A DNA stretch of 64,000 bases, from positions 175-64,174 of the forward strand of contig JAUWRG010000001.1 of assembly GCA_030610655.1 (NCBI GenBank). The letters run 5' to 3'. Below are positions 16,865 through 61,628 of this stretch, piece by piece. The notes beneath the pieces were generated by a model that did no database searches, was not told the origin of the DNA, and was given only the letters and a program-made list of their open reading frames with translations. Position numbers and translations under genes: made by a program. How positions within the stretch are numbered: the first letter of the stretch is position 1; each line of letters starts with the position of its first letter. Source of the DNA: Dehalococcoidia bacterium. GTDB taxonomy: Bacteria > Chloroflexota > Dehalococcoidia > E44-bin15.

Positions 16865-17065
16865 AAAGGGAGGCCCCCTCTGGACTCCCCTGTTTTGTTC
16901 CGTTCACCCCGAGCTTGTCGAAGGGCTCATCACGAACAGTTACTGAATCACTGCCTTTTATTGTTGGTCCGTTCGCCCCGAAAACTATGGCGTAGGTAGG
17001 GGCGTTCAGTTGAACGCCCCTACTGGGACAGGTAACTTTGTTGGAGACAAGCCTGGCAATGACGA
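16865..17065. repeat. composite intergenic repeat copy R1 (hairpin module + 27-bp palindrome module + flank)
   Basis: GGAGTCCAGAGGGGGCCTCCCT (reverse orientation) at 16869-16888; palindrome TAGGGGCGTTCAGTTGAACGCCCCTAC at 16997-17023; the flank CTGGGACAGGTAACTTTGTTGGAGACAAGCCTGGCAA matches the inverted flank at 22530-22565. Confidence 0.75.
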
Positions 17066-17326
17066 GAAGATGCCACCCACTTATCTGAATCGAAGCATAG
17101 GTGGCACTTTTCATTAGCATGGTCTTCGATGCCGTTGCTCCCCACCACCTCGCTACCAAGCATCATTCCCTTCTCGGCCTTGCCTTAGTGCACCATTACG
17201 AGACCACAACACATCATAGCCAGAATCGTCTGCGCAAGATGAAGCAGGATACGTCGTCCAGAGCACCAAGTACCAAGAAGAAGGGCTGAGGAATGAAGTC
17301 AGCCCCCAGCCCTTCTCTATCACTGG

Positions 17327-18463
17327 CTAAGGAGCTGGGTCATAGTATGTGATCACTAGCTTGGGACGGCTGTCAGGATCGATAGTGTAGTCTGAGGAAA
17401 CAAAGAGCTTTACCGCACCCCATGTCTCTTCATCGGCATCTATCAGCACCAGACCGTGATTGGCAATAGACCCGTCGACCCACCCTTCGATCAGGGCAGG
17501 CTCGAGTTCCCATTCTACGAAATCGTTTGTTTCGACGTCCGGCAACAAGGTGCTAGCGCATTCAGCAGGGCTATGTCCCGGCTGTTCACCCCACGTGATG
17601 GTGTTTTCCGCCCAAGCATCAGTCACCTGGTAGGCATTAACGCTTGTGGCAACCACGTTCGAACTGTCGCCGTACCACAGCAGCAGCTCAACCGAGGTCA
17701 CGACCGCCGTCGCTGGAATCCCGGACAGGCTGAAGCGTATATACGTTCTCACCTTGTCGCCACCATCGTTGCCGATAATTAGGAAGGGCAGACTTCCCTC
17801 GTTGGTTGTTGGATCTGTGCTCATGACCAGTGCATCCTTGCCCTCGATGTCATCCGGCTGGAAAGTGACCGTCTGCGGTGGGGCAGGGTCGAGTTCCCAG
17901 TTAATGTACGTGGTCTCGCCAGCATTTACCGTCACCGTTCCTTCTTTGTCTTTGTACTCGGTTAGCGCGAGCTTAATCGTATGGTCGCCCCCAGGTACAT
18001 CGGCGATGACGTAAGGGGTTATGCTTCCCGTATCTGTCCCATCGATGTAAACCATCGCCCCTGTAGGGCTCGACTTTACATCGATCGAGCCTGCTGTTGC
18101 CACAACAGCAACGGTGACAGAGCAACTTCCTTCGGCTGTTCCCCCTCTGCCATCATCAACGGTCACGGTCACTGTATATGTTCCCAACGCACCCGCCGCT
18201 GTCCAGTCAACCGTACTATTTGTCCCCAGGATTGTTGCCTCACAGGGACCGCTGTATCTCCAGCTATACGTAAGAGTGTCACCATCTGGATCGCTAGCGA
18301 CGCAGGTTAGAGTAGTGATCTCCCCTGGAGCCACGCTCGGAGGATCGGCATCAAGGCTGGTAATCTGCGGAGGATTGTTGCCAGGTCCGCAGGCGCCAGC
18401 GAAAAGCAACGCCACTCCGACGAGTACTAGAACCGCCCATTGAGTCCATCTAGGTAGTTTCAT
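17327..18463 (-). CDS. secreted/lipo-protein with PKD-like, PEGA and C-terminal DNRLRE-like domains
   Basis: Signal peptide ending in AGACG; PKD hallmark DPDGDTLTYSW; PEGA motif SSPTGAMVYIDG; C-terminal RTYIRFSLSGIP...WAENTITWGEQP pattern. Confidence 0.65.
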   Translation of the reverse strand: MKLPRWTQWAVLVLVGVALLFAGACGPGNNPPQITSLDADPPSVAPGEITTLTCVASDPDGDTLTYSWRYSGPCEATILGTNSTVDWTAAGALGTYTVTVTVDDGRGGTAEGSCSVTVAVVATAGSIDVKSSPTGAMVYIDGTDTGSITPYVIADVPGGDHTIKLALTEYKDKEGTVTVNAGETTYINWELDPAPPQTVTFQPDDIEGKDALVMSTDPTTNEGSLPFLIIGNDGGDKVRTYIRFSLSGIPATAVVTSVELLLWYGDSSNVVATSVNAYQVTDAWAENTITWGEQPGHSPAECASTLLPDVETNDFVEWELEPALIEGWVDGSIANHGLVLIDADEETWGAVKLFVSSDYTIDPDSRPKLVITYYDPAP

Positions 18464-18582
18464 GACCTTGTACCTCCTTCATGCAATAGACTTGCTAAAC
18501 CTTATCACAACTTAGCTAACCTGGCAACGCTCGCCGTTGACAGAGGAAACCAATGCCACAGGTGAACAGCCTGTCAAACAGC

Positions 18583-19707
18583 CTATGGAGCCAGATCAAA
18601 ATAGGTGATCACCAATTTGGGGGGGCGTTCGAAATAGAAGGTATGGTTTGATGAATAGAATCGCTTCCAAGCCTTCACTGTATTCTCATCGGTATCTTTC
18701 AATAATACCCCTTTATTGACGATGGAGCCATCGACCCAGCTCTGAACCAGATCATCAATATCCCAGTATATGAAATCTTTTGTTACATCAGCAGGCACAG
18801 TAGCAGTGCTTTCGGGAGTCGCTGTCCAAATAGGTTGATGTGCCCAGTCAACAGCGTCTTCGTCCCAACTGCTAATAACATTATAAACACCTATTACCAA
18901 GGGTTTCGCACCGCTAGTGCCGTCGTAGTATAGTCCAAGCTCAGCGTTGGTTATGATAGCAGTAGAGGGAATCGCACGGAGATCAAACTGAAGATATGAC
19001 CCATAGTATTCATACATGACCTCGGCGCCAACAAATAAGTACTCCTCTGAGCCATAGTTATCATCCTGCCTATCCTCATATACATAGGCATCGTTGCCAT
19101 CACCGGGACCAGGCTGCATTGTGTGCGTAGTTTCGACAGCATAATCAAGGGTCCAGTCGATGTAGGTAACCGGCTCGGCGCCAACCGTCGCCGTTCCCAC
19201 CTTGTCTTTATAGTGGTAGTAGGTTAGCTTAATAGTATAGCCGCCTTCAGTTAGACCAGTGATGCTGCAAGGGGTTACTTTCCCTGTATCCTCACCATCA
19301 AGGTAAACATTTGCCCCTTCTGGATTGGAGGTTATGTTGATCGAGCCAGTTGCCACTCCCACGGTGATATAGCAATACTGAGTAGCCATTCCCCCTCCAC
19401 CATCATCAACAATAACGGTAATAATATATGTATCCTCCACGTCTGGTGCCACCCACGTAGCCACATTCCTCGTCCATGTGATACTCCCGTCAGTCGCCGT
19501 CCAGTCGTAGGTGAGATCATCACCATCGGGGTCGTTGGCAACACAGTCTATAGTGGAACTCCCTCCCAGGCCTACGCCCAGTGGAGTGGCAGTAAGGCTG
19601 GAAATTTGCGGAGGATTATTGCCACCTCCGCCGCAGGCACCAGCAAGAAGCAAAGCTATCCCAAGAAAGACTACAAGCACCCATTGACCATATCTAGACA
19701 ATCTCAT
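18583..19707 (-). CDS. secreted/lipo-protein, tandem paralog of 17327-18463 (PKD-PEGA-DNRLRE-like)
   Basis: Same architecture and colinear motifs (DPDGDDLTYDW, SNPEGANVYLDG, C-terminal PPKLVITYFDLAP versus PKLVITYYDPAP). Confidence 0.65.
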   Translation of the reverse strand: MRLSRYGQWVLVVFLGIALLLAGACGGGGNNPPQISSLTATPLGVGLGGSSTIDCVANDPDGDDLTYDWTATDGSITWTRNVATWVAPDVEDTYIITVIVDDGGGGMATQYCYITVGVATGSINITSNPEGANVYLDGEDTGKVTPCSITGLTEGGYTIKLTYYHYKDKVGTATVGAEPVTYIDWTLDYAVETTHTMQPGPGDGNDAYVYEDRQDDNYGSEEYLFVGAEVMYEYYGSYLQFDLRAIPSTAIITNAELGLYYDGTSGAKPLVIGVYNVISSWDEDAVDWAHQPIWTATPESTATVPADVTKDFIYWDIDDLVQSWVDGSIVNKGVLLKDTDENTVKAWKRFYSSNHTFYFERPPKLVITYFDLAP

Positions 19708-19810
19708 CGCTTTATGCCTCCTTTTTGACTATTTTCAATTGTATCATGACCTAGCTGGCTAGGCAAGGAAATTGACGGGGAAACCCAAAACCCTTAGAAT
19801 AACAAGAGGA

Positions 19811-20781: not shown

Positions 20782-20870
20782 GGAGAGGTGTCCGAGTGGT
20801 CTATGGTGCCGCTCTCGAAAAGCGGTGTCTCAAGTAATTGGGACCGTGGGTTCGAATCCCACCCTCTCCG
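20782..20870 (+). tRNA. tRNA-Ser (anticodon CGA)
   Basis: Acceptor GGAGAGG/CCTCTCC, anticodon loop CTCGAAA, long variable arm, T-loop GGTTCGAATCC. Folded manually. Confidence 0.8.
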
Positions 20871-20871
20871 C

Positions 20872-20957
20872 GGAGAGGTGCTGGAGTGGCCGATCAGGCG
20901 CGCCTGGAGAGCGCGTGTCGCCTTTGGCGACCGTGGGTTCGAATCCCACCCTCTCCG
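20872..20957 (+). tRNA. tRNA-Ser (anticodon GGA)
   Basis: Same acceptor and T-arm as the upstream tRNA; anticodon stem CGCGC/GCGCG with loop CTGGAGA; long variable arm. Confidence 0.75.
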
Positions 20958-21080
20958 CTTCTTTCGCCCGTTGAGCTCATCCTTAATGACTTCCCCTACT
21001 CTAGCAATGGTTTTTGCTTTCCATTGGCTATTATGCTATAATGAATTAAACCGCAAATAATTGAGAGGGAAACCTGAAGT

Positions 21081-22385: not shown

Positions 22386-22529
22386 GACCACTGCTCAGAC
22401 CTCGCCACCCTCCTCGTCCAGGCAATCTGCGTAATAGACTCAGCATTTCCCTTTCTGGGCGTGTCACCAAGTTACCGGACTACCAAAAGTATTGACCTCG
22501 TTCAGATACATAGGTGATATCTTGTCGGT

Positions 22530-22957
22530 CTTACCAAGCTTGCCCCAACGAAGTTACCTGTTCCAGTAGGGGCGTTCAATTGAACGCCCCTACTAAAGCC
22601 GGTTGTATAAACATGGTCTCTCGCATTACAGTGGGGAATCAACCCCATCAGAAAGCCGTTTTAAGCCCAGGAGTGGGACGTGATATCATCATGATAGCCA
22701 TTTTGGCAGCCTAGTGGGGAAACTTATTCGGACTTTTGCTTTGTGCAACAGGCTCTACTATGTCATAGGTTGAAGGGGAGTCCAGAGGTGACTCCCTCTG
22801 GCAGGTGTCTTGGAGTGCCCCAGAACTACAGTTGAGGGTGAGCAGTCCAAAACAGAATACTCCCTCCCCTGGCACCTCACCACTCACTCCCTCACCCTCC
22901 CCCTGAAGGGAGAAGGAATCAGATTCTTCGCCTTCGGCTCAAAATGACATTCCTGTT
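22530..22957. repeat. composite intergenic repeat copy R2
   Basis: Palindrome AGTAGGGGCGTTCAATTGAACGCCCCTACT at 22566-22595 (inverted relative to R1 including its flank); GGAGTCCAGAGGTGACTCCCTCTGG at 22775-22801; the 3' part ends in a GATTCTTCGCCTTCGGCTCAAAATGACATTCC terminal-inverted-repeat-element-like tail. Confidence 0.75.
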
Positions 22958-23225
22958 ATGGCATCATGTATCGTTGCCTCCCTGAAGCATTAAATCAAGT
23001 GTAGTTGCCCGATTGATCGGGCCAATTACGCTCCGACAAGTCGGAGCAACTATATAACTTGGGGGGTGCTAGGGGGCAGCAGAAAATGGGGGGCCAGAGG
23101 GATTTCCACTCTGGCGGGGTTTGGGGGTGTCCCCCAGTAATACACTTCGGGGCGGGTGGGTAGGTCAAAACAACAATTACGAGTGTTTGTCTTACCCTAA
23201 CCACTATGATAGAATGCACTGACCT

Positions 23226-27390: not shown

Positions 27391-27815
27391 AAATCCTGCT
27401 GATCCACGGACCGAACCTGAACATGCTGGCCAAGAGAGATACGGCGCTGTACGGTGACAAGACCCTCACCGAGATCGATTCCCTAGTGAAAAAAAGGGCC
27501 CAGGAGCTGGGTGTCGAGGTCTTAGCCTTCCAGTCGAACAGCGAGGGGACACTAATAGACTTCATCCAAGCCGAATGCCCCAAAGCAGATGGAATCATCA
27601 TCAACCCCGGGGCACTGACCCATTATGGTTACTCGCTTCGGGAGGCCCTGGTTGATAGCGCCCTCCCGGTGATCGAGGTCCATCTATCAAACATCTACGC
27701 CCGTGAGGAGTGGCGTCACAAATCAGTAATCGCGCCCATCGCCAGGGGCCAGATCAGCGGGCTTGGCTGGCGGGGCTGTGTTGCCGCCTTGGAGATATTG
27801 GCCGCAGAAATATAA
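27387..27815 (+). CDS. aroQ: type II 3-dehydroquinate dehydratase
   Basis: MKILLIHGPNLNMLAKRDTALYG N-terminus and HLSNIYAREEWRHKS signature. Confidence 0.9.
   Translation: MKILLIHGPNLNMLAKRDTALYGDKTLTEIDSLVKKRAQELGVEVLAFQSNSEGTLIDFIQAECPKADGIIINPGALTHYGYSLREALVDSALPVIEVHLSNIYAREEWRHKSVIAPIARGQISGLGWRGCVAALEILAAEI
27753..27812. repeat. aroQ 3'-end segment duplicated downstream of the toxin-antitoxin cassette (left copy)
   Basis: ATCAGCGGGCTTGGCTGGCGGGGCTGTGTTGCCGCCTTGGAGATATTGGC versus ATAGCGGGCTTGGCTGGCGGGGATATGTTGCCGCCTTGGAGATAGTGGC at 28745-28800. Confidence 0.75.
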
Positions 27816-28132: not shown

Positions 28133-28384
28133 ATGCCTAAGAAAGTGATACAGGTTCCTATCGAGCAAGAGTTGCTACACGCTCTTGATTTATTATCAAA
28201 GAAGCGCCGTCAATCTCGATCAGAACTTATTCGAGAAGCCTGCCAACGATATCTAAGACAAATAGAATCTGAGCAGCTAGATGAGGTCTATAAAGAGGGA
28301 TATAGAAGGCTACCCGAGGAGTCATCTCTGGGGCAGGGGCAGGTGAGTCTAGCGACTCAGATTCTTCCTCAGGAGTCTTGGTAA
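28133..28384 (+). CDS. ribbon-helix-helix family antitoxin (MazE/CopG-like)
   Basis: 83 aa; RHH-type N-terminus (KKVIQVPIEQELLHALDLLSKKRRQSRSELIREA); stop/start TAAATG junction with the downstream toxin gene. Confidence 0.65.
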   Translation: MPKKVIQVPIEQELLHALDLLSKKRRQSRSELIREACQRYLRQIESEQLDEVYKEGYRRLPEESSLGQGQVSLATQILPQESW

Positions 28385-28699
28385 ATGCATCGTGGTGAGG
28401 CATGGTGGGCAAATTTGCCTCCTCCTATTGATAGACGACCGGTGCTTTTGCTTTCCAGAGAAAGTGCTTACCAAGTGAGAACCTCCATTACTGTAGCTGT
28501 TATTACTCGCACCATTAGAGACATCCCCGTAGAGGTACCACTAGGGCTAGAGGATGGTATGCCTAATCAGTGTGTGGTGAATCTTGATGATATCTTAACT
28601 ATACCAAAAGCTTTGCTTAGTGAGCGAATCACCGTTTTATCTGACGCCAAGATGGCTCAAGTTATTAAGGCGATTGCCTTTGCTTTAGACCTAGGTTAG
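28385..28699 (+). CDS. MazF/PemK-family mRNA interferase toxin
   Basis: 104 aa; the RGEAWWANLPPPIDRRPVLLLSRES pattern is typical of the PemK/MazF fold. Confidence 0.65.
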   Translation: MHRGEAWWANLPPPIDRRPVLLLSRESAYQVRTSITVAVITRTIRDIPVEVPLGLEDGMPNQCVVNLDDILTIPKALLSERITVLSDAKMAQVIKAIAFALDLG

Positions 28700-28744: not shown

Positions 28745-28800
28745 ATAGCGGGCTTGGCTGGCGGGGATATGTTGCCGCCTTGGAGATAGTGGCAACAGAG
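28745..28800. repeat. degenerate duplicate of the aroQ 3' end (right copy), downstream of the MazEF-like cassette
   Basis: See 27753-27812. Confidence 0.75.
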
Positions 28801-28866
28801 AAGGCAAAACCTCATGAGCGCTTGCACACCATCAAATCATGAAAATTTGCTGGCTAGATACCGTTC

Positions 28867-28952
28867 GTGGTCCTTCTGCGGAAGGATGTCGAACCATGAA
28901 CGACCCTTCGACAGGCCTGTCCTGAGTTCATCGAAGGGATCAGGGCGAACGG
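28867..28952. repeat. intergenic repeat copy R3 (internal module only)
   Basis: TCCTTCTGCGGAAGGATGTCGAA...CAGGCCTGTCCTGAG...TCGAAGGGATCAGGGCGAACGG parallels the interior of the 51896-52008 element. Confidence 0.6.
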
Positions 28953-45291: not shown

Positions 45292-45723
45292 CTATGTGGA
45301 GGCTGCCTTCTGGCAGCTCGGGCAGCAACCTATAAATTCAAGGAGGTGACTCTCAACCTCAAAGCCAGTCTCTCTGGACAGCCTCTTCTCCAGTTCACCT
45401 AGACGGCATCCGGTAAAGTCAACAACCTTGCCACAATCGGAGCAGATCAGATGATGGTGATGCTCCGATGGTCTAGTTAGCAAATAGCTGCGGCGGCCAT
45501 CTTCAGCGTGCACTTCACAGATAAGGCCAAGCTTATCGAGTATGTCAAGGGTGCGATACACAGTGACCAGCCCAATGCCGGTATACTCTTTATGTGCCCT
45601 CTCGTATATGTCTGCAGGGGTAAGATGCTCCTGGCTATCCACAATAACCCGCAATATTGCCCGCCGCTGCGGAGTTACCTTATAACCCCGCCGCCTTAGT
45701 AGAGTAATTACCCTTCTCACCAC
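45292..45723 (-). CDS. zur: Fur-family metalloregulator, probably Zur
   Basis: HHHHLICSDCGKVVDF ... CCPSC metal sites; located upstream of lgt-znuACB. Confidence 0.75.
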   Translation of the reverse strand: MVRRVITLLRRRGYKVTPQRRAILRVIVDSQEHLTPADIYERAHKEYTGIGLVTVYRTLDILDKLGLICEVHAEDGRRSYLLTRPSEHHHHLICSDCGKVVDFTGCRLGELEKRLSRETGFEVESHLLEFIGCCPSCQKAAST

Positions 45724-45740
45724 ATCTAACTTCCAATTCT

Positions 45741-45761
45741 AAATGAAAATCATTTTCATTT
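45741..45761. promoter_or_regulatory. candidate Zur/Fur box (perfect 21-bp palindrome) upstream of zur
   Basis: AAATGAAAATCATTTTCATTT begins 18 bp upstream of the zur start codon. Confidence 0.55.
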
Positions 45762-46046
45762 ACTACAATAACAAAATTACTCAACATGGTCAATATGTCA
45801 CGGAGCATTCTTTCAGAGGCAGACTATATCCTTATAAGAATCCCTAAAAATGTAGCGCGTCCTTCTTCGAAGGATAGCCTCGCTTAAAACAACCCTGAGG
45901 GGTCGCACTACGAAAATTCCTTGGGGGGCTGAAACACCTACAAACTGCCTAAATTCAAAGAGGCATCAGAATTAAACAGCCTTAAATGAAGATACCTATC
46001 CCTCTCTATGTTCGAGCTTCCTCGGTTAGACCTGAGGTGCCATTTT

Positions 46047-48039: not shown

Positions 48040-48078
48040 CTTCCCCCCAGGAGATTATATCATGATAATCCTCATTTT

Positions 48079-48140
48079 GTCATTCTGAGCGAAGCGAAGG
48101 ATCTCGATACCCTTCGCTGCACCCAGGGTGACAATGAAGT
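48079..48140. repeat. intergenic repeat copy R4 (GTCATTCTGAGCGAAGCGAAGGATC-type)
   Basis: GTCATTCTGAGCGAAGCGAAGGATCTCGATACCCTTCGCTGC with internal GCGAAGG/CCTTCGC hairpin. Confidence 0.6.
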
Positions 48141-49702: not shown

Positions 49703-50269
49703 TTATTCACTCATTTTCATAGATAGATACGATTAGATTGGCTCTTCCTCTAAGCACAGTCAATTTTAGCCTAGGTAGCGATGGTTTAGCAAGCCACTGC
49801 TTCTCGTTGGTCTTGCTAAAATAGATGAGCGGCATCTTCGCCGTATTGAAAGGCACTCTTCTATAGGAGGGAACCTTGATGTAAAGCAAAAAGTGGACTC
49901 TAGGAAGTAACTTCTTTGACGGCATCCACTACTTGCTTCAATACATCTTTGAAGAGCCTGCCAGCTAGGTCTCCGGTCGTCTCTGGCTCTACTATTGAGC
50001 CTAGCCTTGGCACAATAAGCCAGGGTAATCTCCTTCGCCACAGTCAAAGCATCGTCTGCCATAATTTTTACCTCCCTTTGGCCATTATACGTATTATGAG
50101 GACAATAAGCTGGTAGACAGGCTGTCTAAAAACCTCATTCCGCGTAGCGTCGTGACTCCTGTCACGACGAAGAATTCGTCCTTCAGCAGAAGGACGCTAC
50201 CCTTTTGGGACGGCCTGTAGATATGATATTTGCTTGATTTAGGACTGAAATTGTGTAGTGACCACCAGC

Positions 50270-50503
50270 TTAAGCATAGACTTTTATATTGTGCTGCTCA
50301 AGAAGTTTAGCTATTTCTGACTCGTATGGCAAACCGGTTATGTCTACGCCGCTACCTACGTAAAGTAGTTCAACGCCTATAACAGTTCCATCTTCTGCAT
50401 AGTCAATAAATCTTGTTTCATCAAGCTCCTTAGAATATGAGTAAGGTAACTTATTAATGAGGATGTAAGCACAGTCAGCATCGCGGTCATACTGGAATTC
50501 CAT
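50270..50503 (-). CDS. DUF2283-family small protein (putative antitoxin-like partner)
   Basis: 77 aa; pairs with the upstream DUF4258-like gene. Confidence 0.5.
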   Translation of the reverse strand: MEFQYDRDADCAYILINKLPYSYSKELDETRFIDYAEDGTVIGVELLYVGSGVDITGLPYESEIAKLLEQHNIKVYA

Positions 50504-50518
50504 AGAGCCTCCTTTAGT

Positions 50519-50767
50519 TTAGTCGAGAACGATAGCCGTTATGATTCTTAATGGGCTGGTATTCTTACGAACGACTACTCTAAGTCTCTTTCCGTTTTTC
50601 AAGTAGCCGACAAAACAATCATTACCTTCTTTATCCTTGTACGCTATATCATAGGAATCAAGAACGTTTTCGACTTCTGCCCTTGTTATCGCACGTTGCT
50701 TCATTCGATTCCGAGCATGATGTTGAAATTTGTAAGCTTCCCCGCCCGGTGTCTCATACACTTTCAT
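50519..50767 (-). CDS. DUF4258-family small protein (putative toxin-like)
   Basis: 82 aa; basic N-terminus (HHARNRMKQRAITRAEVENVL). Confidence 0.5.
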   Translation of the reverse strand: MKVYETPGGEAYKFQHHARNRMKQRAITRAEVENVLDSYDIAYKDKEGNDCFVGYLKNGKRLRVVVRKNTSPLRIITAIVLD

Positions 50768-50932
50768 TTTCTACCCTCCCAGTAAGTTTTGTCAATTCCG
50801 CCAACTAACTGTTACCAGCTGGTTTTTGGTTCCTTTTAGTACGTTATGCTACATCTAACTAGAAGTCAAGCTCTTAACTGCTTGACAAAGCTGCCGCTGT
50901 TATGGTAATATATAGCATGGAGGAGGTGAACT

Positions 50933-51691
50933 ATGCTAAACCAGTCCGAAAAAAACAAGAAACGGGAGGTGTCGCGGTATTCCTATCCATATTATGATTT
51001 AGAAAGTGCCATTCAAGTTACTAAGATACTCTATGACCAGGCAGGTGGTAAAACCTCATTCGCACAATTAGCTTCCTACCTTGGGCATAAGGATGAATCC
51101 AGCGGAACGTTCATTGCTAAGATTTGGGCAGCTAAGTTATTGGGGCTTGTCCAAGTTCAGACTCAAACTGTATCCACCACAGAATTAGGCGAACGATTGA
51201 CAACACTTCAGCCCGGTTTACAGAGGGATAGGCGGCTTGCGGATGCCTTTCTGAATGTACCGCTGTTTCGCGAGGTCTATAAGAGATTTGAAAATTCAAC
51301 ACTCCCTTCAACACGAGAAGGACTTTTGAACGTTCTACAAAGTACTTTTGGTGTTCCTTCCAAACGTGCGCCAGTGGCTTTGAAGGTGTTGTTGGCTTCA
51401 GCGGAGCAAGCTAATTTTAAGCGCGCTGACCCCAATCGGCTGATTCACCCTGTGCCCGCGGGGTTGATGGAAAGAGAAGCTTTAGCGAAAGCTGAAGCTG
51501 AGCAAGAAGAACCAGTATCTAATGCTCCTCAGTTGGAAACACCACTGAGGAAGGTGCATCCAGCTATAAGTGGCTTTCTCCAAGAGCTCCCATCTAAGGG
51601 AGAGCGATGGACTACAAGCGACCAGCAGAGATGGCTCGATGCTTTTACCGCCATGATTAAGGCTCTTTACCCAAGTGAAGACAGCGATTAG
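50933..51691 (+). CDS. hypothetical protein
   Basis: 252-aa ORF preceded by a GGAGGAGG RBS; no recognised motif. Confidence 0.4.
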   Translation: MLNQSEKNKKREVSRYSYPYYDLESAIQVTKILYDQAGGKTSFAQLASYLGHKDESSGTFIAKIWAAKLLGLVQVQTQTVSTTELGERLTTLQPGLQRDRRLADAFLNVPLFREVYKRFENSTLPSTREGLLNVLQSTFGVPSKRAPVALKVLLASAEQANFKRADPNRLIHPVPAGLMEREALAKAEAEQEEPVSNAPQLETPLRKVHPAISGFLQELPSKGERWTTSDQQRWLDAFTAMIKALYPSEDSD

Positions 51692-51895
51692 ACAACGAAG
51701 ACTATGGATAAAGACGAAATTCTCGAAAGGGGGCTCTCCCTGAAGAGGGGCTGGGGACGCCCCCACGCCACCTATCATTGCGAGGATTGTCACGAGCGTA
51801 AGCGAGAGAACTCGCCCAAGCAATTAGAGACTTCCATTTGCCATTCCGACGAGGATTAGCGATCAAGTAAACTCGGATGGAAAGGGGAACCATGT

Positions 51896-52008
51896 GTCAT
51901 TCTGAAGGAGCAAAGCAAGGGAGGAATTTGGTTTAGATTCTTCCCCTTCACGGAGCCTGTCCTGTCCTTCTGCGGAAGGATATCGAAGGGTTCGGGGTCA
52001 GAATGACG
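51896..52008. repeat. terminal-inverted-repeat element R6 with perfect 10-bp inverted ends
   Basis: GTCATTCTGA...TCAGAATGAC with internal CCTTCTGCGGAAGG hairpin; 113 bp. Confidence 0.8.
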
Positions 52009-52127
52009 CTGCGAAGCAGGTATAATGGGGAGGAAGTGATGCATCATCAATCACATGAACGAGTACAGGGGAGCACACGATAATATAAGAGAGGCATACC
52101 TCGGAATTTGATGATTGCGCTAGCGGC

Positions 52128-53140: not shown

Positions 53141-54346
53141 TCACAGTTCACCTCTGTAATCCTTATTACTTAGGTTGTTTTTCTTCCGAAGCATTTCCCT
53201 TAACAAGTCCCGTGCCACCCTGTCTTCCATTTTTGTCTTGCTTAGAAGATCTTCTGACTCATGCTTTGGCAGCATCTCTGCTATAAATCTCATTAGTTCC
53301 ACTGAAGGGTAGAAATATTGCATTCCGTAGTGCACACAGCCCATATTAAGCTTAAGGAGCTTGAATATCTGCGCTACGAGTTTTCTTCGTTCGTTATCCG
53401 TTAGTATAGTTGTGTTGAGCCAAAACTCGCCGTTGTTGGTTACAACTTGAACGGAAAGCGGGTCAGGGAACCATAGGTGGAGATTCAAGTATAAGCGAAA
53501 AGGGAAATCATTAACCGCTTGGCACAATTCCCTCAATTCCTTAAGGAGATCATCGCTTTCCCCAGTACTCATATCGGGGAAATAAGGCGGGCGCATATGC
53601 CTCCCTTCATCTCTTCGTTTTTTAATTATCTCCTCGATTGTCTCCTTGGGGCACCCATCCAACTCCATTTGCTGCTTCGCCTCTTCCTCATCTTTAGCGA
53701 TATAAGTCTCAAGCTGGGTAATATCCCGCTCGAGGTTTTCATCGTATTTGTGAATTGCATTCACCTCTAATTGCCTTTCCGTTGCCTCCCCAACGTGTTT
53801 CTCAAGTATCCCGGCGTGTCCCCTTTTCACTCGTTCTTCTTCCTTTAGTCGCCTTTCCATTTCCACCTTTTGCAAGCCAAGTGTATGATCGTAAATCTTC
53901 TCAATCATCCTATCAGCAACCTCTACTGCCGATTCCCAATTTCCCGGTTTATATTTTTTGATTATCCTCCTCGTTTTTCCTGTCGACGAATCATAAATCC
54001 TAATAAAGGACAGTTTTGTTGTAAAGAATCCGCCTGTTTTTAAATTATATGTAGTTTTTCCACCTGTCATATCCTCTATCGTTTGGATGTGTATCCCCAA
54101 CTTATAAAAAGATATACCTCTAAAGGTATCCCCACTAACTGGTGAGACGATTTCTCGAATGCTAAAACTTTTACTAATCACTTTCCCGATCATACTTGCC
54201 GTTTCGTCTATGTTCACAACTTTGCCTAGCAACTCTCCTTTCAACCGCCTCTTGCCTAGACTCATATGCTTCCTCCTTTGAGCAAAAGTTTTAACCTCAA
54301 AATCACTTACATTTGCGAGTTCATTTCCTGTTTGGCCTTTAAGCAC
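53141..54346 (-). CDS. hypothetical protein (401 aa)
   Basis: Long ORF overlapping the upstream gene by 40 bp; charged coiled-coil middle region; no recognised motif. Confidence 0.4.
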   Translation of the reverse strand: MLKGQTGNELANVSDFEVKTFAQRRKHMSLGKRRLKGELLGKVVNIDETASMIGKVISKSFSIREIVSPVSGDTFRGISFYKLGIHIQTIEDMTGGKTTYNLKTGGFFTTKLSFIRIYDSSTGKTRRIIKKYKPGNWESAVEVADRMIEKIYDHTLGLQKVEMERRLKEEERVKRGHAGILEKHVGEATERQLEVNAIHKYDENLERDITQLETYIAKDEEEAKQQMELDGCPKETIEEIIKKRRDEGRHMRPPYFPDMSTGESDDLLKELRELCQAVNDFPFRLYLNLHLWFPDPLSVQVVTNNGEFWLNTTILTDNERRKLVAQIFKLLKLNMGCVHYGMQYFYPSVELMRFIAEMLPKHESEDLLSKTKMEDRVARDLLREMLRKKNNLSNKDYRGEL

Positions 54347-54867
54347 TCCCAGACACCTACGCTTATCCCATCAAGCCAGTAACTGATTCTTTCCACTAGC
54401 TCCTGGAGACTCTTAAAGTTGATATTGCGCAGCTCTGAAGCTGAAATCGAGGGTTTACCATTCTTGTCAACAGGATACCGAAAAGCGTATGAGTTAGGGT
54501 CCCATTCTGAAAATTTATTGATGTCCTCCTGCACAGCATCAAGGTCGGTTTCACGTTTATTACGTCCATCTTTCGACAGCCTTGCTAGCTCATCTTTGTC
54601 TATTTCTTCCAAGAGGCCTTTACAATCCCCCCACAGTTCACCTATTTTATGATGTTGCTGATATCGCAATAAACCTGGAGCTTTACCCAAAACCTGATTG
54701 CCATCTTGGATTATCTCTTTGATCCTTAATTCGATATACTGCCGATACAGAAATATTACTGGAAAGACGAGGGTATTTTGATCACCATGAGTAACGCAAT
54801 GTTCGACTAGTATGTCGCCAGCCAACTTATAACCTACTGCATATCGACCCCAGCTTAGATATCCCAA
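54307..54867 (-). CDS. hypothetical protein (186 aa), possible HEPN-like
   Basis: Contains an Rx4HH motif (LRYQQHHKIGELW); first gene of the overlapping pair. Weak evidence. Confidence 0.35.
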   Translation of the reverse strand: MGYLSWGRYAVGYKLAGDILVEHCVTHGDQNTLVFPVIFLYRQYIELRIKEIIQDGNQVLGKAPGLLRYQQHHKIGELWGDCKGLLEEIDKDELARLSKDGRNKRETDLDAVQEDINKFSEWDPNSYAFRYPVDKNGKPSISASELRNINFKSLQELVERISYWLDGISVGVWECLKAKQEMNSQM

Positions 54868-56637: not shown

Positions 56638-56762
56638 TTATACAATCCTTACTGGATTATAGTTCATAGTAGGAGTGGAAAGCCAGAGGGCTGTTCCCTC
56701 AGGCGTTGGTCTGTCAGTGTCCTCCAGATATATACCCCAGGGCGGGCGGGTGGGACCAATGT

Positions 56763-56939
56763 GTCATTCCGAGTGAGCGCATCGACGAAGAATCTCCACC
56801 AGCGCGACCGACGCCTCAACCCCACCGAGATTCTTCGCGGAGCCTGCCCTGAGCGAAGTCGAAGGGGCTCAGAATGCCAAGGAGTGTCGCCTCCCTCGCA
56901 ATGATACCTAGAGAGGAGTCCAGAGGGGCCTCCCTCTGG
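56763..56939. repeat. composite repeat copy R7 (inverted-repeat-ended element + hairpin module)
   Basis: GTCATTCCGAGTGAGCGC...GATTCTTCGCGGAGCCTGCCCTGAGCGAAGTCGAAGGGGCTCAGAATGCC, then GAGGAGTCCAGAGGGGCCTCCCTCTGG at 56913-56939. Confidence 0.75.
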
Positions 56940-57122
56940 TGTGGGTTTGTTTACAACTTGGCCGCACGGCTCGGCCCCTAAAAAGTTGGCTTGGCCCTCC
57001 CGCTGTGATATACTAGCACGAACGCAGGCTAGCTAATATCTGCTGTCGAAACAAGTTTAAGGCCTAGCTGTAGACGATACTCCAGGCAGTCAGCAGTATG
57101 TAGATTGGCCTAGTATGAGGAG

Positions 57123-58109
57123 GTGTCACTTATGTTCAAGACCAGAATCACTGAAATGCTTGGCATCGAGTACCCCATTATTCAAGGGGGCATGATGTGG
57201 GTTTCCTGCCCAGAGCTAGTAGCCGCTGTTTCTAATGCCGGGGGCTTGGGCATCCTCGTTTCGGCAGCCTATGCTACAAAAGAAGACCTCCGAGACGACA
57301 TCAAAAAGACGAAGAGCCTCACCGACAAACCATTCGGCGTCAATCTAAGCCTGTTCCCCTCTATGATGGCATTGCCAAACGAGGAATATATCGAGGTCAT
57401 AGTTGACGAAGGAATCCCCATGGTGGAGACCTCCGGTATTAGGTCACCCGAGGAATATCTACCCCGCCTCAGAGAGGGGAATGTGAAGGTTATTCATAAA
57501 TGCGCTGCGTCGAGACATGCTAAGAAAGCAGAAGAGGTGGGTGTAGATGCGGTGACTGTGGTCGGGATGGAGAATGGTGGCGCCACCGGGATGCTGGATG
57601 TCGGCACCTTCGTGCTCATTCAGGCAGCGGCAAAGGCCATATCCCTACCACTCATCGCTGGAGGAGGCATCGTCGACGCCCGCGGCTTTGTCGCTGCTTT
57701 GGCCTTGGGGGCAGAGGGAGTAGTGATCGGCACGAAGTTCATGGCGACACACGAAGCTCCACTGCACCAGAACTTCAAGGAGTGGCTACTGAGGTCCAAA
57801 GAGACCGACACCGTGCTCGTGATGCGCTCCATTGGCAACACTCATCGCGCCATCAAAAGCCCGATCGCCAGCAAACTGCTTGACATGGAAGCAAGGAATG
57901 CCCCTCTTGAGGAACTCCAGACCATAATCGGCGGCTCACACTCGGAAGAGGTGCTTAAAGAGGGTAAGCTGGACGCCGGTGTGGGAATGGCTGGACAGGC
58001 TGTGGGCCTGATCGACAAAGTGGTAAGTGTTAAGGAAGTCATCGACAAAATCATCGAGGGTGCCAGAGAGATAGTCCCACGCCTGGAGAAAATCATAACG
58101 CCGACGTAA
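57123..58109 (+). CDS. nitronate monooxygenase / FabK-like FMN enzyme (NMO family)
   Basis: MLGIEYPIIQGGMMWVS and the TIM-barrel FMN-binding pattern. Confidence 0.8.
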   Translation: MSLMFKTRITEMLGIEYPIIQGGMMWVSCPELVAAVSNAGGLGILVSAAYATKEDLRDDIKKTKSLTDKPFGVNLSLFPSMMALPNEEYIEVIVDEGIPMVETSGIRSPEEYLPRLREGNVKVIHKCAASRHAKKAEEVGVDAVTVVGMENGGATGMLDVGTFVLIQAAAKAISLPLIAGGGIVDARGFVAALALGAEGVVIGTKFMATHEAPLHQNFKEWLLRSKETDTVLVMRSIGNTHRAIKSPIASKLLDMEARNAPLEELQTIIGGSHSEEVLKEGKLDAGVGMAGQAVGLIDKVVSVKEVIDKIIEGAREIVPRLEKIITPT

Positions 58110-58802: not shown

Positions 58803-59002
58803 CCGTATAAAAGTCCCTTCGCAGTCCCAAGCTCAGAAATTATATCCCTCAACCTTGCTTCCTGTCCACAAAGGTTAGAATAAGATCAGATATCATCTGT
58901 GTAATCAAGATGGCTTGACAAAAATGGGTTGGCTGCCCAAAGTAGTCTTTACTTAATTACCTTGATATCAGTTACCCCTAATGTCCGGCAAAGGAGACTC
59001 AT

Positions 59003-59287: not shown

Positions 59288-59310
59288 CTACAGAGGGAGG
59301 ATATGTAAGG

Positions 59311-59757: not shown

Positions 59758-59819
59758 CAGGAAAGTATGGCATCCCACAACTACCCTCATCAAAGGTCTC
59801 CTCTTGATGCCCGGCTGGT

Positions 59820-60104: not shown

Positions 60105-60129
60105 ATTAGCCGAGATGTCCCACTAACTA

Positions 60130-61020
60130 CTATGGCTGTTTTGAACAATTATCCCTAGTCGCTTTGGGCCACATGCAGCGAAACATATAATACTGATCGG
60201 GATACTGCTTGATGTATGGCTCGAGCGAGTTCATGACCGTCTGCGTCAACTCCCGAATGTCCTTGCTCAGCGTGCCGCTGGGCTCGAAACTGATGCATTC
60301 GCCGAAGGAAGTGAGAAAGGTATTGTCGGGACGACGCACCGAGGCCATGGGCACGATCTTGGCACCGGTCTTTAGCGCCAAAGTCGCCGCGCCCCGAGGC
60401 ATTCTGGTGACGGCGTCACCAAACCTCACCTCTACGCCCTTCCCAGCATTAGGACTGTCAATGAGCAGTACCAAGTGTTCGTTACGACGAAGCGCTTCCA
60501 CCATCCCACCTATCCCCTTCTCTATGGCGACAACGTTCATCCCCAGACGCCGACGCCGACTTTGCACAAATTCGTCGAGCTTCGCCGAGTCGAAGCTCTC
60601 GACAATGACATTCAGCGGGTATTTATTCAGGACGACTGCGGCGACAGTCAGTTCCCAATTTCCCTGGTGCAAGCCGACGAGGATGCATCCCTTTCCCTCC
60701 TCGAGTGCCTTTCCCAGGTTCTCCCACCCTTGAAAAGCAACTCTTTTCATTATCTCCTCTGGCTTCGTAGCAGGCAGGCAGACGAAATCCAAAAGGTACT
60801 TGCAGTAGTTGCGCAGCGCCCCCTTCGCCAGTCTATCGATCTCTTTCTTGCTGGCATTATTGCCCACGACATGCCTCAGGTTCTCCCTGATGCATTTTCG
60901 TCCCCGGGGCCACACAAGATAACCAATATAGCTGATAACATAAGCTAGAGCGTATCCAAACCTTATAGAAACTACTCGGAAAACAAGTCTAATAATGCTG
61001 CCCAGCACGTACAAGATCAC
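60130..61020 (-). CDS. lysophospholipid/lipid A-type acyltransferase (LpxL/HtrB/PatA-like family)
   Basis: HQGNWE acyltransferase motif; 296 aa. Confidence 0.65.
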   Translation of the reverse strand: MILYVLGSIIRLVFRVVSIRFGYALAYVISYIGYLVWPRGRKCIRENLRHVVGNNASKKEIDRLAKGALRNYCKYLLDFVCLPATKPEEIMKRVAFQGWENLGKALEEGKGCILVGLHQGNWELTVAAVVLNKYPLNVIVESFDSAKLDEFVQSRRRRLGMNVVAIEKGIGGMVEALRRNEHLVLLIDSPNAGKGVEVRFGDAVTRMPRGAATLALKTGAKIVPMASVRRPDNTFLTSFGECISFEPSGTLSKDIRELTQTVMNSLEPYIKQYPDQYYMFRCMWPKATRDNCSKQP

Positions 61021-61389
61021 TGTTTACTCCCAGTGACAAGCTCCTCAACCATCCTACAGGCTTCCTAGTCGGTATATTCAGCGGGATATCTTATTTCAAC
61101 TCACGATAAGGCAACGCTTATCCCTCATCGCCCTTCTAATCAATGATACTTCTACAGCACCTAGACGTCAAGCCTGTTCACAACCCCGTAGCTAGCACGA
61201 CGCGGTTTCCGACCCGCACGCTATAGCGCCTGAATTCACCGTCCCGCTGCTTCAGCGGAAGCTATAACATCGGCAACAACTACTGGTGCAGAAGGCTGTC
61301 CCAATCACAATAAATATCCTGTATGTGATAGCAAGAACCTGAGCCCTCTTATCCCGTTCAGACAGATGAGTGACATCTTCCCCCATTGC

Positions 61390-61628
61390 GAGGCTTGCCC
61401 CCAACGAAGCTGTCCATTCTGGTAAGAGCGTTCAATTAAACAGCCCTACTACGCCGAAGGCATCAGAGAGAGTCCAGAGGGATTTGCCCATTAACGGGGA
61501 TCTGGGGAATCGGCCAGAGGTACATTTCAGGGGGGATGGGCACATGTCATTCTGATGGACTCTGAGTGAAACGAAGGGTCTCGAAAAATCTCTCCACTCC
61601 CAGATTCTTCGCTGCGCTCAGAATGACA
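61390..61628. repeat. composite repeat copy R8 (degenerate palindrome module + hairpin module + inverted-repeat-ended element)
   Basis: GCTTGCCCCCAACGAAG...GAGCGTTCAATTAAACAGCCCTACTA (degenerate palindrome module with flank), GAGTCCAGAGGG at 61471-61482, GTCATTCTGA (61546) ... GATTCTTCGCTGCGCTCAGAATGAC (61628). Confidence 0.7.

What the first reader, a model, noticed from the sequence alone, without database searches (positions are those of the whole stretch)
16865..61628. A modular family of interspersed intergenic repeats with at least eight copies in 64 kb
Three recurring modules combine differently at 16865-17065, 22530-22957, 28867-28952, 48079-48140, 51896-52008, 56763-56939 and 61390-61628. 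Module one is a 26-30 bp perfect palindrome, TAGGGGCGTTCAATTGAACGCCCCTA, carrying about 40 bp of conserved flank that appears in opposite orientations at 17 kb and 22.5 kb. Module two is a hairpin, GGAGTCCAGAGGGnnCCCTCTGG. Module three is an 80-115 bp element with GTCATTCTGA...TCAGAATGAC terminal inverted repeats and an internal CCTTCTGCGGAAGG hairpin. All copies are intergenic. They generate spurious ORFs that share peptides such as RGVQLNAPT. The family looks like MITE or REP elements and marks recombination-prone intergenic sites, including both sides of the B12-rSAM gene and the aspS-NMO gap.
Basis: seen in the sequence. Interest (0 to 1): 0.5.

Follow-up and report, generated by a model that had tools for sequence, protein, structure and literature searches.

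The report
REP and Ssn-type hairpin repeats
The intergenic repeats are real, but they are three separate families of small hairpin-forming DNA repeats: a classic REP tied to RayT transposases, a variant of the repeats that flank Ssn single-strand nuclease genes, and an orphan Chloroflexota element. This is a rich example of a largely known kind of bacterial repeat DNA.

Summary
The repeats are at the stated places, far above chance, and all are intergenic. They are not one modular family. They are at least three independent hairpin-repeat families that pile up in the same long intergenic regions of a Dehalococcoidia genome.

- **Module 1.** The core GTAG-GGGCGTTCAATTGAACGCCC-CTAC is a "double-foot" GTAG REP. 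The same 22-28 bp sequence occurs in at least 119 loci from about 15 phyla, with unrelated flanks. It also lies in-frame inside, or just upstream of, RayT (TnpA_REP subclass 2.4) genes.
- **Module 3.** This is an inverted pair of arms, tGTCATTCTGAGCGAAGCGAAGAATC. Such arms flank single-domain GIY-YIG genes in Dehalococcoidia, Anaerolineae, Caldilineales, Nitrospinota and a cyanobacterium. Those genes are homologous to gonococcal ssnA, which sits among canonical NTS repeats. Module 3 is therefore an Ssn-related (CGTC-type) repeat variant that the published SRM motif misses.
- **Module 2.** This is a 55-75 nt double hairpin found only in Chloroflexota loci, with a covarying stem and no identified partner gene.

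One module-3 copy is absent from three relatives, which is an empty site. The window encodes neither RayT nor Ssn. Verdict: a good observation with the right class; known kinds plus one new sequence variant and one orphan.

The parts
16996..17089 (-). Module 1 copy A: GTAG REP palindrome (16996-17023, 1 mismatch in the loop) plus a ~65-nt lineage-specific flank
   Evidence: hairpin -14.3 kcal/mol, z -7.8
22501..22594 (+). Module 1 copy B: flank plus a perfect 30-bp palindrome AGTAGGGGCGTTCAATTGAACGCCCCTACT (22565-22594)
   Evidence: z -9.3. The same-strain contig L266 ends exactly at 22594.
61355..61451 (+). Module 1 copy C: decayed copy whose palindrome no longer folds
   Evidence: (D5)
16837..16894 (-). 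Module 2 copy: GGGGAGTCCAGAGGG-loop-CCCTTTGG, then GG..GTCCCCCAG second hairpin
   Evidence: (E 5e-15)
22772..22826 (+). Module 2 copy
   Evidence: E 6e-12
23083..23160 (+). Module 2 copy with a G-rich tail GGGGCGGGTGGG, 66 nt upstream of dprA.
   Evidence: D7; z -3.1; E 4e-13
56673..56755 (+). Module 2 copy with a G4-like tail GGGCGGGCGGGTGGG, next to the aspS start. Conserved in relative L258, absent in L260.
   Evidence: (E 5e-11)
56913..56949 (+). Module 2 copy, first hairpin only. Conserved in L258, absent in L260.
   Evidence: (z -2.7)
61470..61507 (+). Module 2 copy, decayed
   Evidence: D7; E 0.008
48078..48134 (.). Module 3 copy a: short inverted pair of SRM-like arms. Absent from three relatives. 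Its ATGACA end sits at the -35 position of the conserved tig promoter.
   Evidence: (z -3.0)
51895..52008 (.). Module 3 copy b: perfect 10-nt ends with a nested GTCCTTCTGCGGAAGGAT mini-hairpin. Lies at the edge of a 2.4-kb low-GC insertion.
   Evidence: (z -3.0)
56762..56879 (.). Module 3 copy c: imperfect ends (GTCATTCCGA...TCAGAATGCC). Its right arm carries a nested CCTGCCCTGAGCGAAGTCGAAGG unit, as in the right arm of the L078 ssn locus.
61545..61628 (.). Module 3 copy d: perfect ends. Its right arm is identical to the arm next to a Dehalococcoidia ssn gene (L270).
   Evidence: I7; z -2.4
28861..28952 (.). Module-3 relative with CCGTTCG...CGAACGG ends. Contains the mini-hairpin TCCTTCTGCGGAAGGA and a CTGAG..CGAAGG unit.
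   Evidence: z -3.1
16898..16945 (-). Decayed module-3-like fragment (encodes ...EPFDKLGVNG in the spurious ORF)
   Evidence: (no significant fold)

Best explanation
The long intergenic regions of this Dehalococcoidia genome hold a mosaic of three unrelated families of small repeats. Each repeat folds into a hairpin when the DNA is single-stranded.

**(1) Module 1 is a GTAG-tagged 'double-foot' REP.** Its 28-bp palindrome is the substrate type of RayT/TnpA_REP, an HUH-tyrosine enzyme of subclass 2.4. These enzymes bind the hairpin and its GTAG foot on single-stranded DNA and cut and rejoin next to it. This activity is thought to spread REPs. In this lineage the REP travels with about 65 nt of extra sequence.

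**(2) Module 3 is an inverted pair of arms, tGTCATTCTGAGCGAAGCGAAGAATC.** The arms are a sequence variant of the Ssn-related motifs (the CGTC-tagged REPs, such as the Neisseria NTS). They share the GTC tag, a stem that starts with AT, a GAA loop, and a C after the stem. Such motifs are bound, and cut a few bases upstream, by the roughly 95-aa GIY-YIG single-strand nuclease Ssn. The ssn gene typically sits between copies of the motif. How these motifs multiply is not known.

**(3) Module 2 is an orphan.** It is a two-hairpin element of 55-75 nt restricted to Chloroflexota, and its stem is kept by compensatory changes.

**Shown here:** the sequences, their folding, their distribution, their linkage to RayT and Ssn genes in other genomes, and insertion/absence differences between relatives.

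**Inferred:** that the enzymes act on these copies, and that this genome encodes them outside the window.
For: **Module 1**
- Exact or near-exact palindromes occur against 0 expected by chance, and the ssDNA hairpins are strong.
- The 22-mer GGGGCGTTCARTTGAACGCCCC is found in at least 119 genome loci.
- These loci come from Chloroflexota, Bacteroidota, Ignavibacteria, Sumerlaeota, WOR-3, Latescibacterota, Nitrospinota, Calditrichota, Verrucomicrobia, Cloacimonadota, Firestonebacteria, Moduliflexus, Methylomirabilota, Tectomicrobia and FCPU426.
- It is nearly always framed by GTA...TAC, and the flanks are unrelated.
- Twelve loci come from a single Anaerolineales MAG.
- 66 of the 120 best RayT homologs have the loop peptide GVQLNAP. 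The query carried this peptide, so the count is biased upward.
- Quentin et al. 2018 (PMC6006769) describe exactly this for subclass 2.4: double-foot GT[AG]G...C[TC]AC REPs and in-frame REP insertions between HuH and Y.

**Module 3**
Most are 60-110 nt arm-loop-arm hairpins.
- In all 8 GIY-YIG loci inspected the gene has such arms within about 200 nt, and on both sides wherever both flanks were visible. These are L078, L131, L154, L162, L241, L248/249, L270 and L272.
- About 18 of 120 homologs end in arm-encoded tails such as DSSLRSE*.
- The L078 protein is 43.5% identical (E 1e-13) to a N. gonorrhoeae gene embedded in 8 canonical NTS copies. It is 46% identical to an Azospirillum gene flanked by inverted pairs of motif-positive SRMs.
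- This matches the NTS-ssnA-NTS architecture of Chenal et al. 2025 (PMC11893778).

**Mobility**
- Copy 48078-48134 is absent at the orthologous site in three relatives.
- Copy 56762-56879 is replaced in L258 by a different GTAG REP and is absent in L260.
- Same-strain contigs from other assemblies end inside the repeats.

**Module 2**
- Six copies in the window. It occurs otherwise only in Chloroflexota loci.
- The first stem pair is C-G in 8 sequences, G-C in 2 and T-A in 1.
Against: - No RayT and no GIY-YIG gene lies in the 64-kb window, and the rest of the genome could not be searched.
- The genome-wide copy number is unknown.
- The published degenerate SRM motif has 0 matches in the window and in all module-3-type ssn loci.
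- A single module-3 arm is a weak hairpin by nearest-neighbour energies (-1.9 kcal/mol, no better than shuffles). Recognition as an NTS-like hairpin is therefore inferred from architecture only.
- The 65-nt flank of module 1 has no counterpart in other genomes and no clear structure.
- Module 2 has no identified partner gene.
- No within-strain presence/absence polymorphism was seen.
Confidence: 0.78

Rival explanations
1. One composite, modular MITE family. The three modules would be parts of a single non-autonomous transposon, shuffled by internal deletions and moved by one transposase.
For: The modules co-occur in the same intergenic regions, in varying order and orientation. Small module-3-like units are nested inside module 2 in other genomes (L027, L042).
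Against: Each module occurs alone elsewhere, with a different taxonomic range. The modules share no termini. No target-site duplications flank the module-3 copies (sequence). The only genes found between module-3 arms are ssn genes, and the only genes carrying module 1 are RayT genes.
Confidence: 0.05
2. The elements, especially module 2, act mainly as RNA: 5'/3'-UTR stabilisers, attenuators or small RNAs. On this view they are conserved for that role and are not mobile DNA.
For: The module 2 stem tolerates G-T(U) pairs on one strand and shows compensatory changes. Two module-2 copies are conserved at orthologous sites in a relative whose AspS protein is 93% identical. REPs in E. coli are known 3'-UTR elements (abstracts listed).
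Against: No Rfam family matches, even at E<=1. No T-tracts, so the elements are not intrinsic terminators. Copies lie in divergent promoter regions as well as downstream of genes. Module 1 occurs in-frame inside RayT genes. No expression data are available.
Confidence: 0.12
3. The 28-bp palindrome is the operator of a conserved transcription factor.
For: It is a perfect dyad of a length typical of dimeric repressor sites.
Against: It has no constant position relative to genes, and its neighbours are unrelated in 119 loci. It occurs in tandem arrays and half-site arrays (L031, L064, L065). It also lies within coding sequence of RayT.
Confidence: 0.02

Closest known systems
'Double-foot' GTAG REPs of TnpA_REP/RAYT subclass 2.4 (Quentin et al. 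2018, PMC6006769; GTAG REPs of Di Nocera et al. 2013, PMC3733652)
   Same: A 5' GTAG and 3' CTAC frame a fully paired GC-rich stem with a 4-nt loop. The element is extragenic. [quoted passage not shown]
   Different: Here the REP is embedded in a ~95-nt unit with a lineage-specific flank. Only three copies are visible and no RayT is in the window. I did not find the exact identity of the 28-bp REP across about 15 phyla described in the papers I read.
Ssn-related motifs / Neisseria NTS (dRS3) and the SsnA GIY-YIG ssDNA nuclease (Chenal et al. 2025, PMC11893778). These are probably the same as the CGTC-tagged REPs of Di Nocera et al. 2013.
   Same: A GTC tag, a stem beginning with AT, a GAA-type loop and a C after the stem. 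Copies occur as inverted pairs with the tags outward. They flank ~95-aa single-domain GIY-YIG genes homologous to gonococcal ssnA. They form clusters interleaved with other repeat families.
   Different: The stem is TTCTGAGC/GCGAAGAA with two G.A mismatches, so the published degenerate motif does not match. The stable fold is arm-to-arm (60-118 nt elements) rather than a 28-nt hairpin. Small related units are nested in the loops. The hosts are Chloroflexota, Nitrospinota and cyanobacteria rather than Proteobacteria.
BIMEs / REPINs and Neisseria mosaic intergenic regions
   Same: Several short palindromic units in alternating orientation are packed into the same intergenic regions. Inverted doublets form a larger hairpin.
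   Different: The mosaic here mixes units that belong to different enzyme systems (RayT-type, Ssn-type, orphan). It is not made of variants of one REP.
MITEs derived from DDE insertion sequences
   Same: Small size, terminal inverted repeats, intergenic location and insertion polymorphism between relatives.
   Different: No target-site duplication and no parent IS. The associated genes are an HUH-Y1 enzyme and a GIY-YIG nuclease.

Membership tests
GTAG REP (RAYT/TnpA_REP subclass 2.4, double-foot type) | GT[AG]G at the 5' foot of the hairpin and C[TC]AC at the 3' end | tested here: met
   GTAGGGGCGTTCAATTGAACGCCCCTAC at 22566-22593 and 16996-17023. Most of the 125 occurrences in other genomes are framed by gta...tac.
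GTAG REP (RAYT/TnpA_REP subclass 2.4, double-foot type) | Fully paired GC-rich basal stem of 7-20 nt with a loop of 2-5 nt | tested here: met
   Stems of 12-13 bp with a 4-nt loop, -14.3 and -15.1 kcal/mol as ssDNA, z -7.8 and -9.3. The third copy (61421-61452) has decayed and no longer folds.
GTAG REP (RAYT/TnpA_REP subclass 2.4, double-foot type) | The same REP flanks, or is inserted in-frame in, a RayT gene (REPtron) | tested here: met
   Met in other genomes: L064, L041, L023, L050, L104 and L090 (in the loop) and L114 and L030 (upstream). 66 of 120 RayT homologs carry GVQLNAP. The L064 protein matches NCBIfam REP_Tyr_transpos only below its cut-off (50 vs 80 bits). JGI names its homologs RayT.
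GTAG REP (RAYT/TnpA_REP subclass 2.4, double-foot type) | High copy number, and a RayT gene in the same genome | not testable with these tools
   Only 64 kb is available, holding 3 copies and no RayT. Indirect support: same-strain contigs break at the REP.
Ssn-related motif (SRM / NTS / CGTC-tagged REP) | Matches the published degenerate search motif HGTCWYN(0-2)YYVSBRHN(0-5)WNVSBRGN(0-2)RNCYNB | tested here: not met
   0 matches in the window (shuffles give a mean of 0.37). 0 matches in L078, L154, L241, L248, L270 and L272. The same script finds 8 in the gonococcal locus and 4 in the Azospirillum locus. The motif is a search aid built from 29 genomes of 4 phyla, not a definition.
Ssn-related motif (SRM / NTS / CGTC-tagged REP) | Oriented hairpin with an upstream GTC tag, a stem starting with AT and a C directly after the stem | tested here: met
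   tGTC-ATTCTGAGC-GAA-GCGAAGAAT-C compared with the NTS cGTC-ATTCCCGCG-MAV-GCGGGAAT-C. Di Nocera et al. note AT at stem positions 1-2.
Ssn-related motif (SRM / NTS / CGTC-tagged REP) | A 20-50 nt inverted repeat that forms a hairpin by itself | tested here: inconclusive
   A single arm folds with the expected topology but only at -1.9 kcal/mol (z 0.2). The NTS gives -9.0 (z -5.5). The energy model does not credit tandem G.A pairs. Arm-to-arm hairpins are significant (z -2.4 to -3.0).
Ssn-related motif (SRM / NTS / CGTC-tagged REP) | Copies flank genes for single-domain ~95-aa GIY-YIG proteins of the Ssn family | tested here: met
   Met in other genomes at all 8 loci inspected. The proteins are 92-98 aa with PF01541 only. 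They are homologous to the NTS-embedded gonococcal gene (43.5% identity, E 1e-13). Assignment to CDD cd10448 could not be run.
Ssn-related motif (SRM / NTS / CGTC-tagged REP) | Cut by the cognate Ssn as single-stranded DNA only | not testable with these tools
   This needs a biochemical assay.
MITE of a DDE insertion sequence | Target-site duplication flanking the terminal inverted repeats | tested here: not met
   The flanks of the four module-3 copies show no direct repeat (sequences). The orthologous empty sites show a plain ~52-nt gap.
MITE of a DDE insertion sequence | A parent IS with the same ends that encodes a transposase | tested here: not met
   In 120 metagenome loci the only recurrent gene next to the arms is the GIY-YIG gene.
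Intrinsic terminators / curated RNA families | GC hairpin followed by a T-run, or a match to an Rfam model | tested here: not met
   No module is called terminator-like. Rfam gives only two tRNA-Ser at gathering score and nothing credible at E<=1.

The most novel reading that the evidence does not exclude
Two readings go beyond the known picture and are not excluded.

(a) Module 2 may be a new hairpin-repeat family with its own, still unidentified, single-strand DNA enzyme. It is restricted to Chloroflexota, has a covarying stem, and is often followed by a G-quadruplex-like GGGCGGGCGGGTGGG. On this reading, small hairpin units of different systems insert preferentially into each other's loops, as seen in L027, L042 and window 56762-56879. 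That would point to a shared hairpin-loop targeting step.

(b) The exact identity of one 28-bp REP in about 15 phyla may exist because RayT genes carry a copy of their own REP in their coding loop. A transferred gene would then bring the seed of its repeat family with it.
Probability: 0.2. Interest if true: 0.6.

Novelty: new variant of a known kind. Interest (0 to 1): 0.35.

Why it matters
- **Annotation.** These repeats explain long 'empty' intergenic regions, assembly breaks and a whole class of spurious hypothetical proteins in Chloroflexota and many other MAGs. Typical peptides are RGVQLNAPT, VILSEAKDL / RFFASLRMT / DSSLRSE, FDKLR..G and PLWRGVGGVPQ.
- **Biology.** The module-3 arms extend the recently described Ssn/SRM system to Chloroflexota, Nitrospinota and cyanobacteria. 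They do so with a stem variant that the published search motif misses, so the reported abundance of SRMs is likely an underestimate. These variants also offer new specificities for a ssDNA-nuclease toolbox.
- **Co-occurrence.** RayT-type and Ssn-type repeats sit in the same intergenic hotspots, sometimes replacing each other at one orthologous site. This makes the lineage a useful place to ask how such repeats choose their targets.

Tried and rejected
- **Rfam**, at gathering score and at E<=1: only the two tRNAs and noise.
- **Published SRM motif**: no match in the window.
- **Viral contig scans** for module 1 and module 2: no match, so there is no sign of phage carriage.
- **PDB sequence search and NCBIfam** for the GIY-YIG protein: nothing useful. 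The supplements of the Ssn paper are not held.
- **Partner gene for module 2.** ORFs between module-2 copies in L042 and L021 are housekeeping genes. No module-2-encoded peptides appear in the RayT or GIY-YIG sets. The literature search found nothing specific.
- **Structure in the 65-nt module-1 flank.** Three sequences gave no convincing fold. The flank is absent from all fetched loci.
- **Within-population polymorphism.** Contigs encoding identical Fur and rSAM proteins from other samples are 99.8-100% identical to the window and carry the same repeats.
- **The second helix of module 2** was mis-registered in my structure string, so only helix 1 is used.
- **A 59-nt repeat** (16737-16795 / 52009-52067) was first taken for a promoter or leader. 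It is non-coding and was left unexplained.

Full report
**Setting.** The window is a gene-dense stretch of an uncultured Dehalococcoidia genome. Its AspS is 93-94% identical to proteins of Dehalococcoidia MAGs. Recognisable genes include ftsH, two PKD/PEGA surface proteins, greA, two tRNA-Ser, a B12-radical-SAM gene, dprA, topA, xerC, aroQ, tig, clpP, aspS, an NMO gene, hycI and fur. About 16.9% of the window is intergenic. A few intergenic regions are unusually long (485-840 nt), and these hold the repeats.

**Checking the observation.**
- *Module 1.* The 26-mer palindrome occurs at 22567-22592 (exact) and 16997-17022 (one mismatch), with none expected by chance. Self-alignment shows that the repeated unit is about 95 nt: a ~65-nt flank plus the palindrome. 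It is 83% identical between 16996-17089 and 22593-22501 in opposite orientation. A third, decayed copy lies at 61355-61451.
- *Module 2.* The consensus as written does not match anywhere, even with three mismatches, because the loop length varies.
- *Module 3.* The terminal decamer occurs six times against 0.2 expected. Five occurrences are intergenic. There are four full elements of 57-118 nt, a relative with different ends at 28861-28952, and a decayed fragment.
- *Location and ORFs.* All well-defined copies are intergenic. The spurious ORF 16818-17159(-) strings together one peptide from each module.

**Module 1 is a GTAG REP of the RayT world.**
- About half are Chloroflexota. The rest come from Bacteroidota, Ignavibacteria, Sumerlaeota, WOR-3, Latescibacterota, Nitrospinota, Calditrichota, Verrucomicrobia, Cloacimonadota, Firestonebacteria, Moduliflexus, Methylomirabilota, Tectomicrobia and FCPU426.
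- In nearly all of them the core is framed by GTA...TAC, and the sequence beyond that is unrelated. The conserved unit is therefore the 28-bp palindrome GTAG-GGGCGTTCAATTGAACGCCC-CTAC.
- Some genomes have many copies: 12 loci from one Anaerolineales MAG in a truncated scan. Tandem or half-site arrays also occur.
- In eight loci the palindrome lies inside or just upstream of a gene with the N-terminus MKYNPxKHHR and an MPNH.HGI motif. JGI names its homologs 'REP element-mobilizing transposase RayT'.
- In these genes the palindrome is read in frame as GRGVQLNAPT, between the HUH motif and the C-terminal tyrosine region. 66 of the 120 best homologs carry it. Others carry different palindrome-encoded loops, such as VGAKNFSPL and VGARHAVPL.
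- This is what Quentin et al. (2018) describe for TnpA_REP subclass 2.4: 'double-foot' REPs with 5' GT[AG]G and 3' C[TC]AC, and REP insertions within the gene between HuH and Y that keep the frame.
- The ~65-nt flank seen in the window is absent from all fetched loci. It has no convincing structure and remains a lineage-specific passenger.

**Module 3 is an Ssn-type repeat variant.**
Most are arm-loop-arm hairpins of 60-110 nt, and some are in tandem arrays.
- In a Nitrospinota locus a 92-aa GIY-YIG gene sits exactly between a left arm and a right arm. That right arm has the same nested insert as window 56830-56879.
- Three of the 120 metagenome loci have a homologous gene next to the match, with the stop codon supplied by the ...CAGAATGAC end.
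- About 18 of 120 homologs in the protein collection end in arm-encoded tails.
- Two homologs chosen because they lacked such tails are nevertheless flanked by the arms. Four tandem elements lie upstream of the Anaerolineaceae gene.
- A Dehalococcoidia homolog is flanked by GTCATTCTGAGCGCAGCGAAGAATC, identical to the right arm of window 61545-61628. A Planktothrix homolog (68% identical) is flanked likewise.
- The literature supplies the explanation. Chenal et al. (2025) showed that ~94-aa single-domain GIY-YIG proteins (Ssn) are site-specific single-strand DNA nucleases. Their genes are flanked by hairpin repeats: the NTS CGTCATTCCCGCGMAVGCGGGAATCYRG in Neisseria, and 'SRM' in general.
- The L078 protein is 43.5% identical (E 1e-13) to a gonococcal gene that I found embedded in eight canonical NTS copies. 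It is 46% identical to an Azospirillum gene flanked by inverted pairs of motif-positive SRMs with the tags outward, the same arrangement as module 3.
- The module-3 arm shares the GTC tag, the AT-start stem, the GAA loop and the C after the stem. These are the positions that Chenal et al. found critical.
- Its stem, however, contains two G.A mismatches. The published degenerate motif therefore finds nothing in the window or in any module-3-type ssn locus, and the single arm is a weak hairpin by standard energies. The stable fold is arm against arm.
- I therefore file module 3 as a new sequence variant of the SRM / CGTC-tagged REP class. Di Nocera et al. (2013) had described that class as lacking a dedicated enzyme and as occurring in mosaics with other repeats.
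- The small hairpins GTCCTTCTGCGGAAGGAT (28871, 51965) and CGTCCTTCTGCTGAAGGACG (50177-50196), and the CCTG.CCTGAGC....CGAAGG units, look like further members nested in or next to the larger elements.

**Module 2 is an orphan.**
- Its consensus is GGGGAGTCCAGAGGGGC-loop-GCCCCTCTGGCGGGGGTTTGGGGGTGTCCCCCAG.
- It has six copies in the window. Elsewhere it occurs only in Chloroflexota loci, including two orthologous copies in the closest relative. There are none in the 619 kb of metagenome loci selected by module 3.
- The first stem is 83% paired across 14 copies. Its outer pair appears as C-G, G-C and T-A, and G-T pairs are tolerated on one strand.
- Three copies are followed by a G-quadruplex-like run.
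- I found no gene regularly flanked by it and no relation to RayT or Ssn loops.

**Evidence for insertion and turnover.**
- Orthologous regions from relatives with 93%, 82% and 80% identical AspS were fetched.
- The tig-SBP spacer is 48-50 nt in all three and 100 nt in the window. The difference is the module-3 element 48078-48134.
- That insertion sits where the -35 box of the conserved tig promoter would be, and its ATGACA end gives an 11/12 promoter match. This functional reading is inference.
- In the aspS-NMO spacer the 93% relative keeps both module-2 copies. Where the window has module 3, it has a different GTAG REP (GTAGGGGCGGGTTTTAAAGCCGCCCCTAC). The 82% relative has none of these.
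- The window's single NMO gene is a chimera of the first and third of three tandem paralogs in the relatives. That rearrangement therefore came from paralog recombination, not from the repeats.
- Contigs of the same strain from other assemblies stop inside the repeats, as expected for multi-copy sequence. No presence/absence differences were seen within the strain.

**Mechanism, and what is inferred.**
- Shown: sequence, folding, distribution, gene linkage in other genomes, and differences between relatives.
- From established knowledge: RayT/TnpA_REP enzymes bind REP hairpins with their GTAG foot on single-stranded DNA and cut and rejoin them (papers). Ssn binds its hairpin on ssDNA and cuts a few nucleotides upstream. 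In Neisseria this lowers transformation by DNA that carries the motif.
- Inferred: that enzymes of both kinds are encoded elsewhere in this genome and act on these copies, and that the three families accumulate in the same spacers because those spacers tolerate insertions or expose single strands. The way SRMs multiply is unknown even for Neisseria.

**Verdict.** This is a real and well-described observation. The general class (REP/MITE-like) was right, and the 'one modular family' reading was not. Two of the three families belong to known systems, one of them as an undescribed sequence variant. The third is an orphan worth a genome-wide search.

Noticed in passing
window 27756-27808 and 28747-28799: A 53-nt direct repeat (91% identical). 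The first copy is the 3' end of aroQ. Together they bracket a ~990-bp cassette with an RHH-type antitoxin ORF (28133-28384) and a PemK/MazF toxin (28385-28699). This looks like a site-specific insertion that duplicated the end of aroQ.
   Followed up: partly
window 49703-52127 (and on to 54876): A low-GC stretch (0.41-0.47 against 0.50-0.58). It is absent between Asn-synthase and the SBP gene in relatives L261/L262. It carries a DUF4258/DUF2283 pair (50270-50767) and a 252-aa ORF, with a module-3 copy at its edge. The two hypothetical genes 53141-54867 have no Pfam match.
   Followed up: partly
window 57106-57253 / 57123-58109: The single NMO gene aligns at its 5' end to the first, and over the rest to the third, of three tandem NMO paralogs in relatives L258/L260. 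This suggests a deletion by recombination between paralogs.
   Followed up: partly
window 35836-35883, inside gene 34594-36603: A 48-nt near-palindrome (AAATCCCCCTCTAATCCCCCTTTATTAAAGGGGGAAGTAGGGGGATTT) lies in frame (KSPSNPPLLKGEVGGF), just after the N6_N4 methylase domain of a type III-like methyltransferase. It may be an intragenic hairpin-repeat insertion.
   Followed up: partly
window 16737-16795 and 52009-52067: A 59-nt inverted pair (78% identical), non-coding, each copy directly next to a repeat cluster. One lies upstream of the ftsH promoter and the other abuts module 3 copy b. It may be a fourth repeat family.
   Followed up: partly
window 56741-56755, 23149-23160; L022: G-quadruplex-like runs (GGGCGGGCGGGTGGG) follow module 2 in several copies.
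   Followed up: no
window 48054-48083 (- strand): The end of the inserted module-3 element provides ATGACA, 18 nt upstream of the TATAAT that is conserved before tig in all relatives.
   Followed up: partly
window 45740-45762: An AT-rich palindrome AAATGAAAATCATTTTCATTT lies upstream of the fur-family gene 45292-45723 and the lgt/znuA-type operon. It looks like a Fur/Zur-type box.
   Followed up: no
window 5332-6214 vs 6265-7137; 17928-18479 vs 19184-19723; 20782-20958: Tandem paralogs: two 262-aa genes (5334-6122 and 6267-7055; 78% DNA identity), two PKD/PEGA/CBM96 surface proteins (65%), and two adjacent tRNA-Ser genes (CGA, GGA) that share their 3' halves. Same-strain contigs also break at the tRNA pair.
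   Followed up: no
L258 5722-5884: In the closest relative, the site occupied by module 3 in the window holds a different double-foot REP, GTAGGGGCGGGTTTTAAAGCCGCCCCTAC. One orthologous spacer has therefore been hit by repeats of different systems.
   Followed up: partly
L273 (Azospirillum lipoferum plasmid AZO_p3): An ssn-type GIY-YIG gene with inverted SRM pairs on both sides is inserted between sufB and sufC.
   Followed up: no
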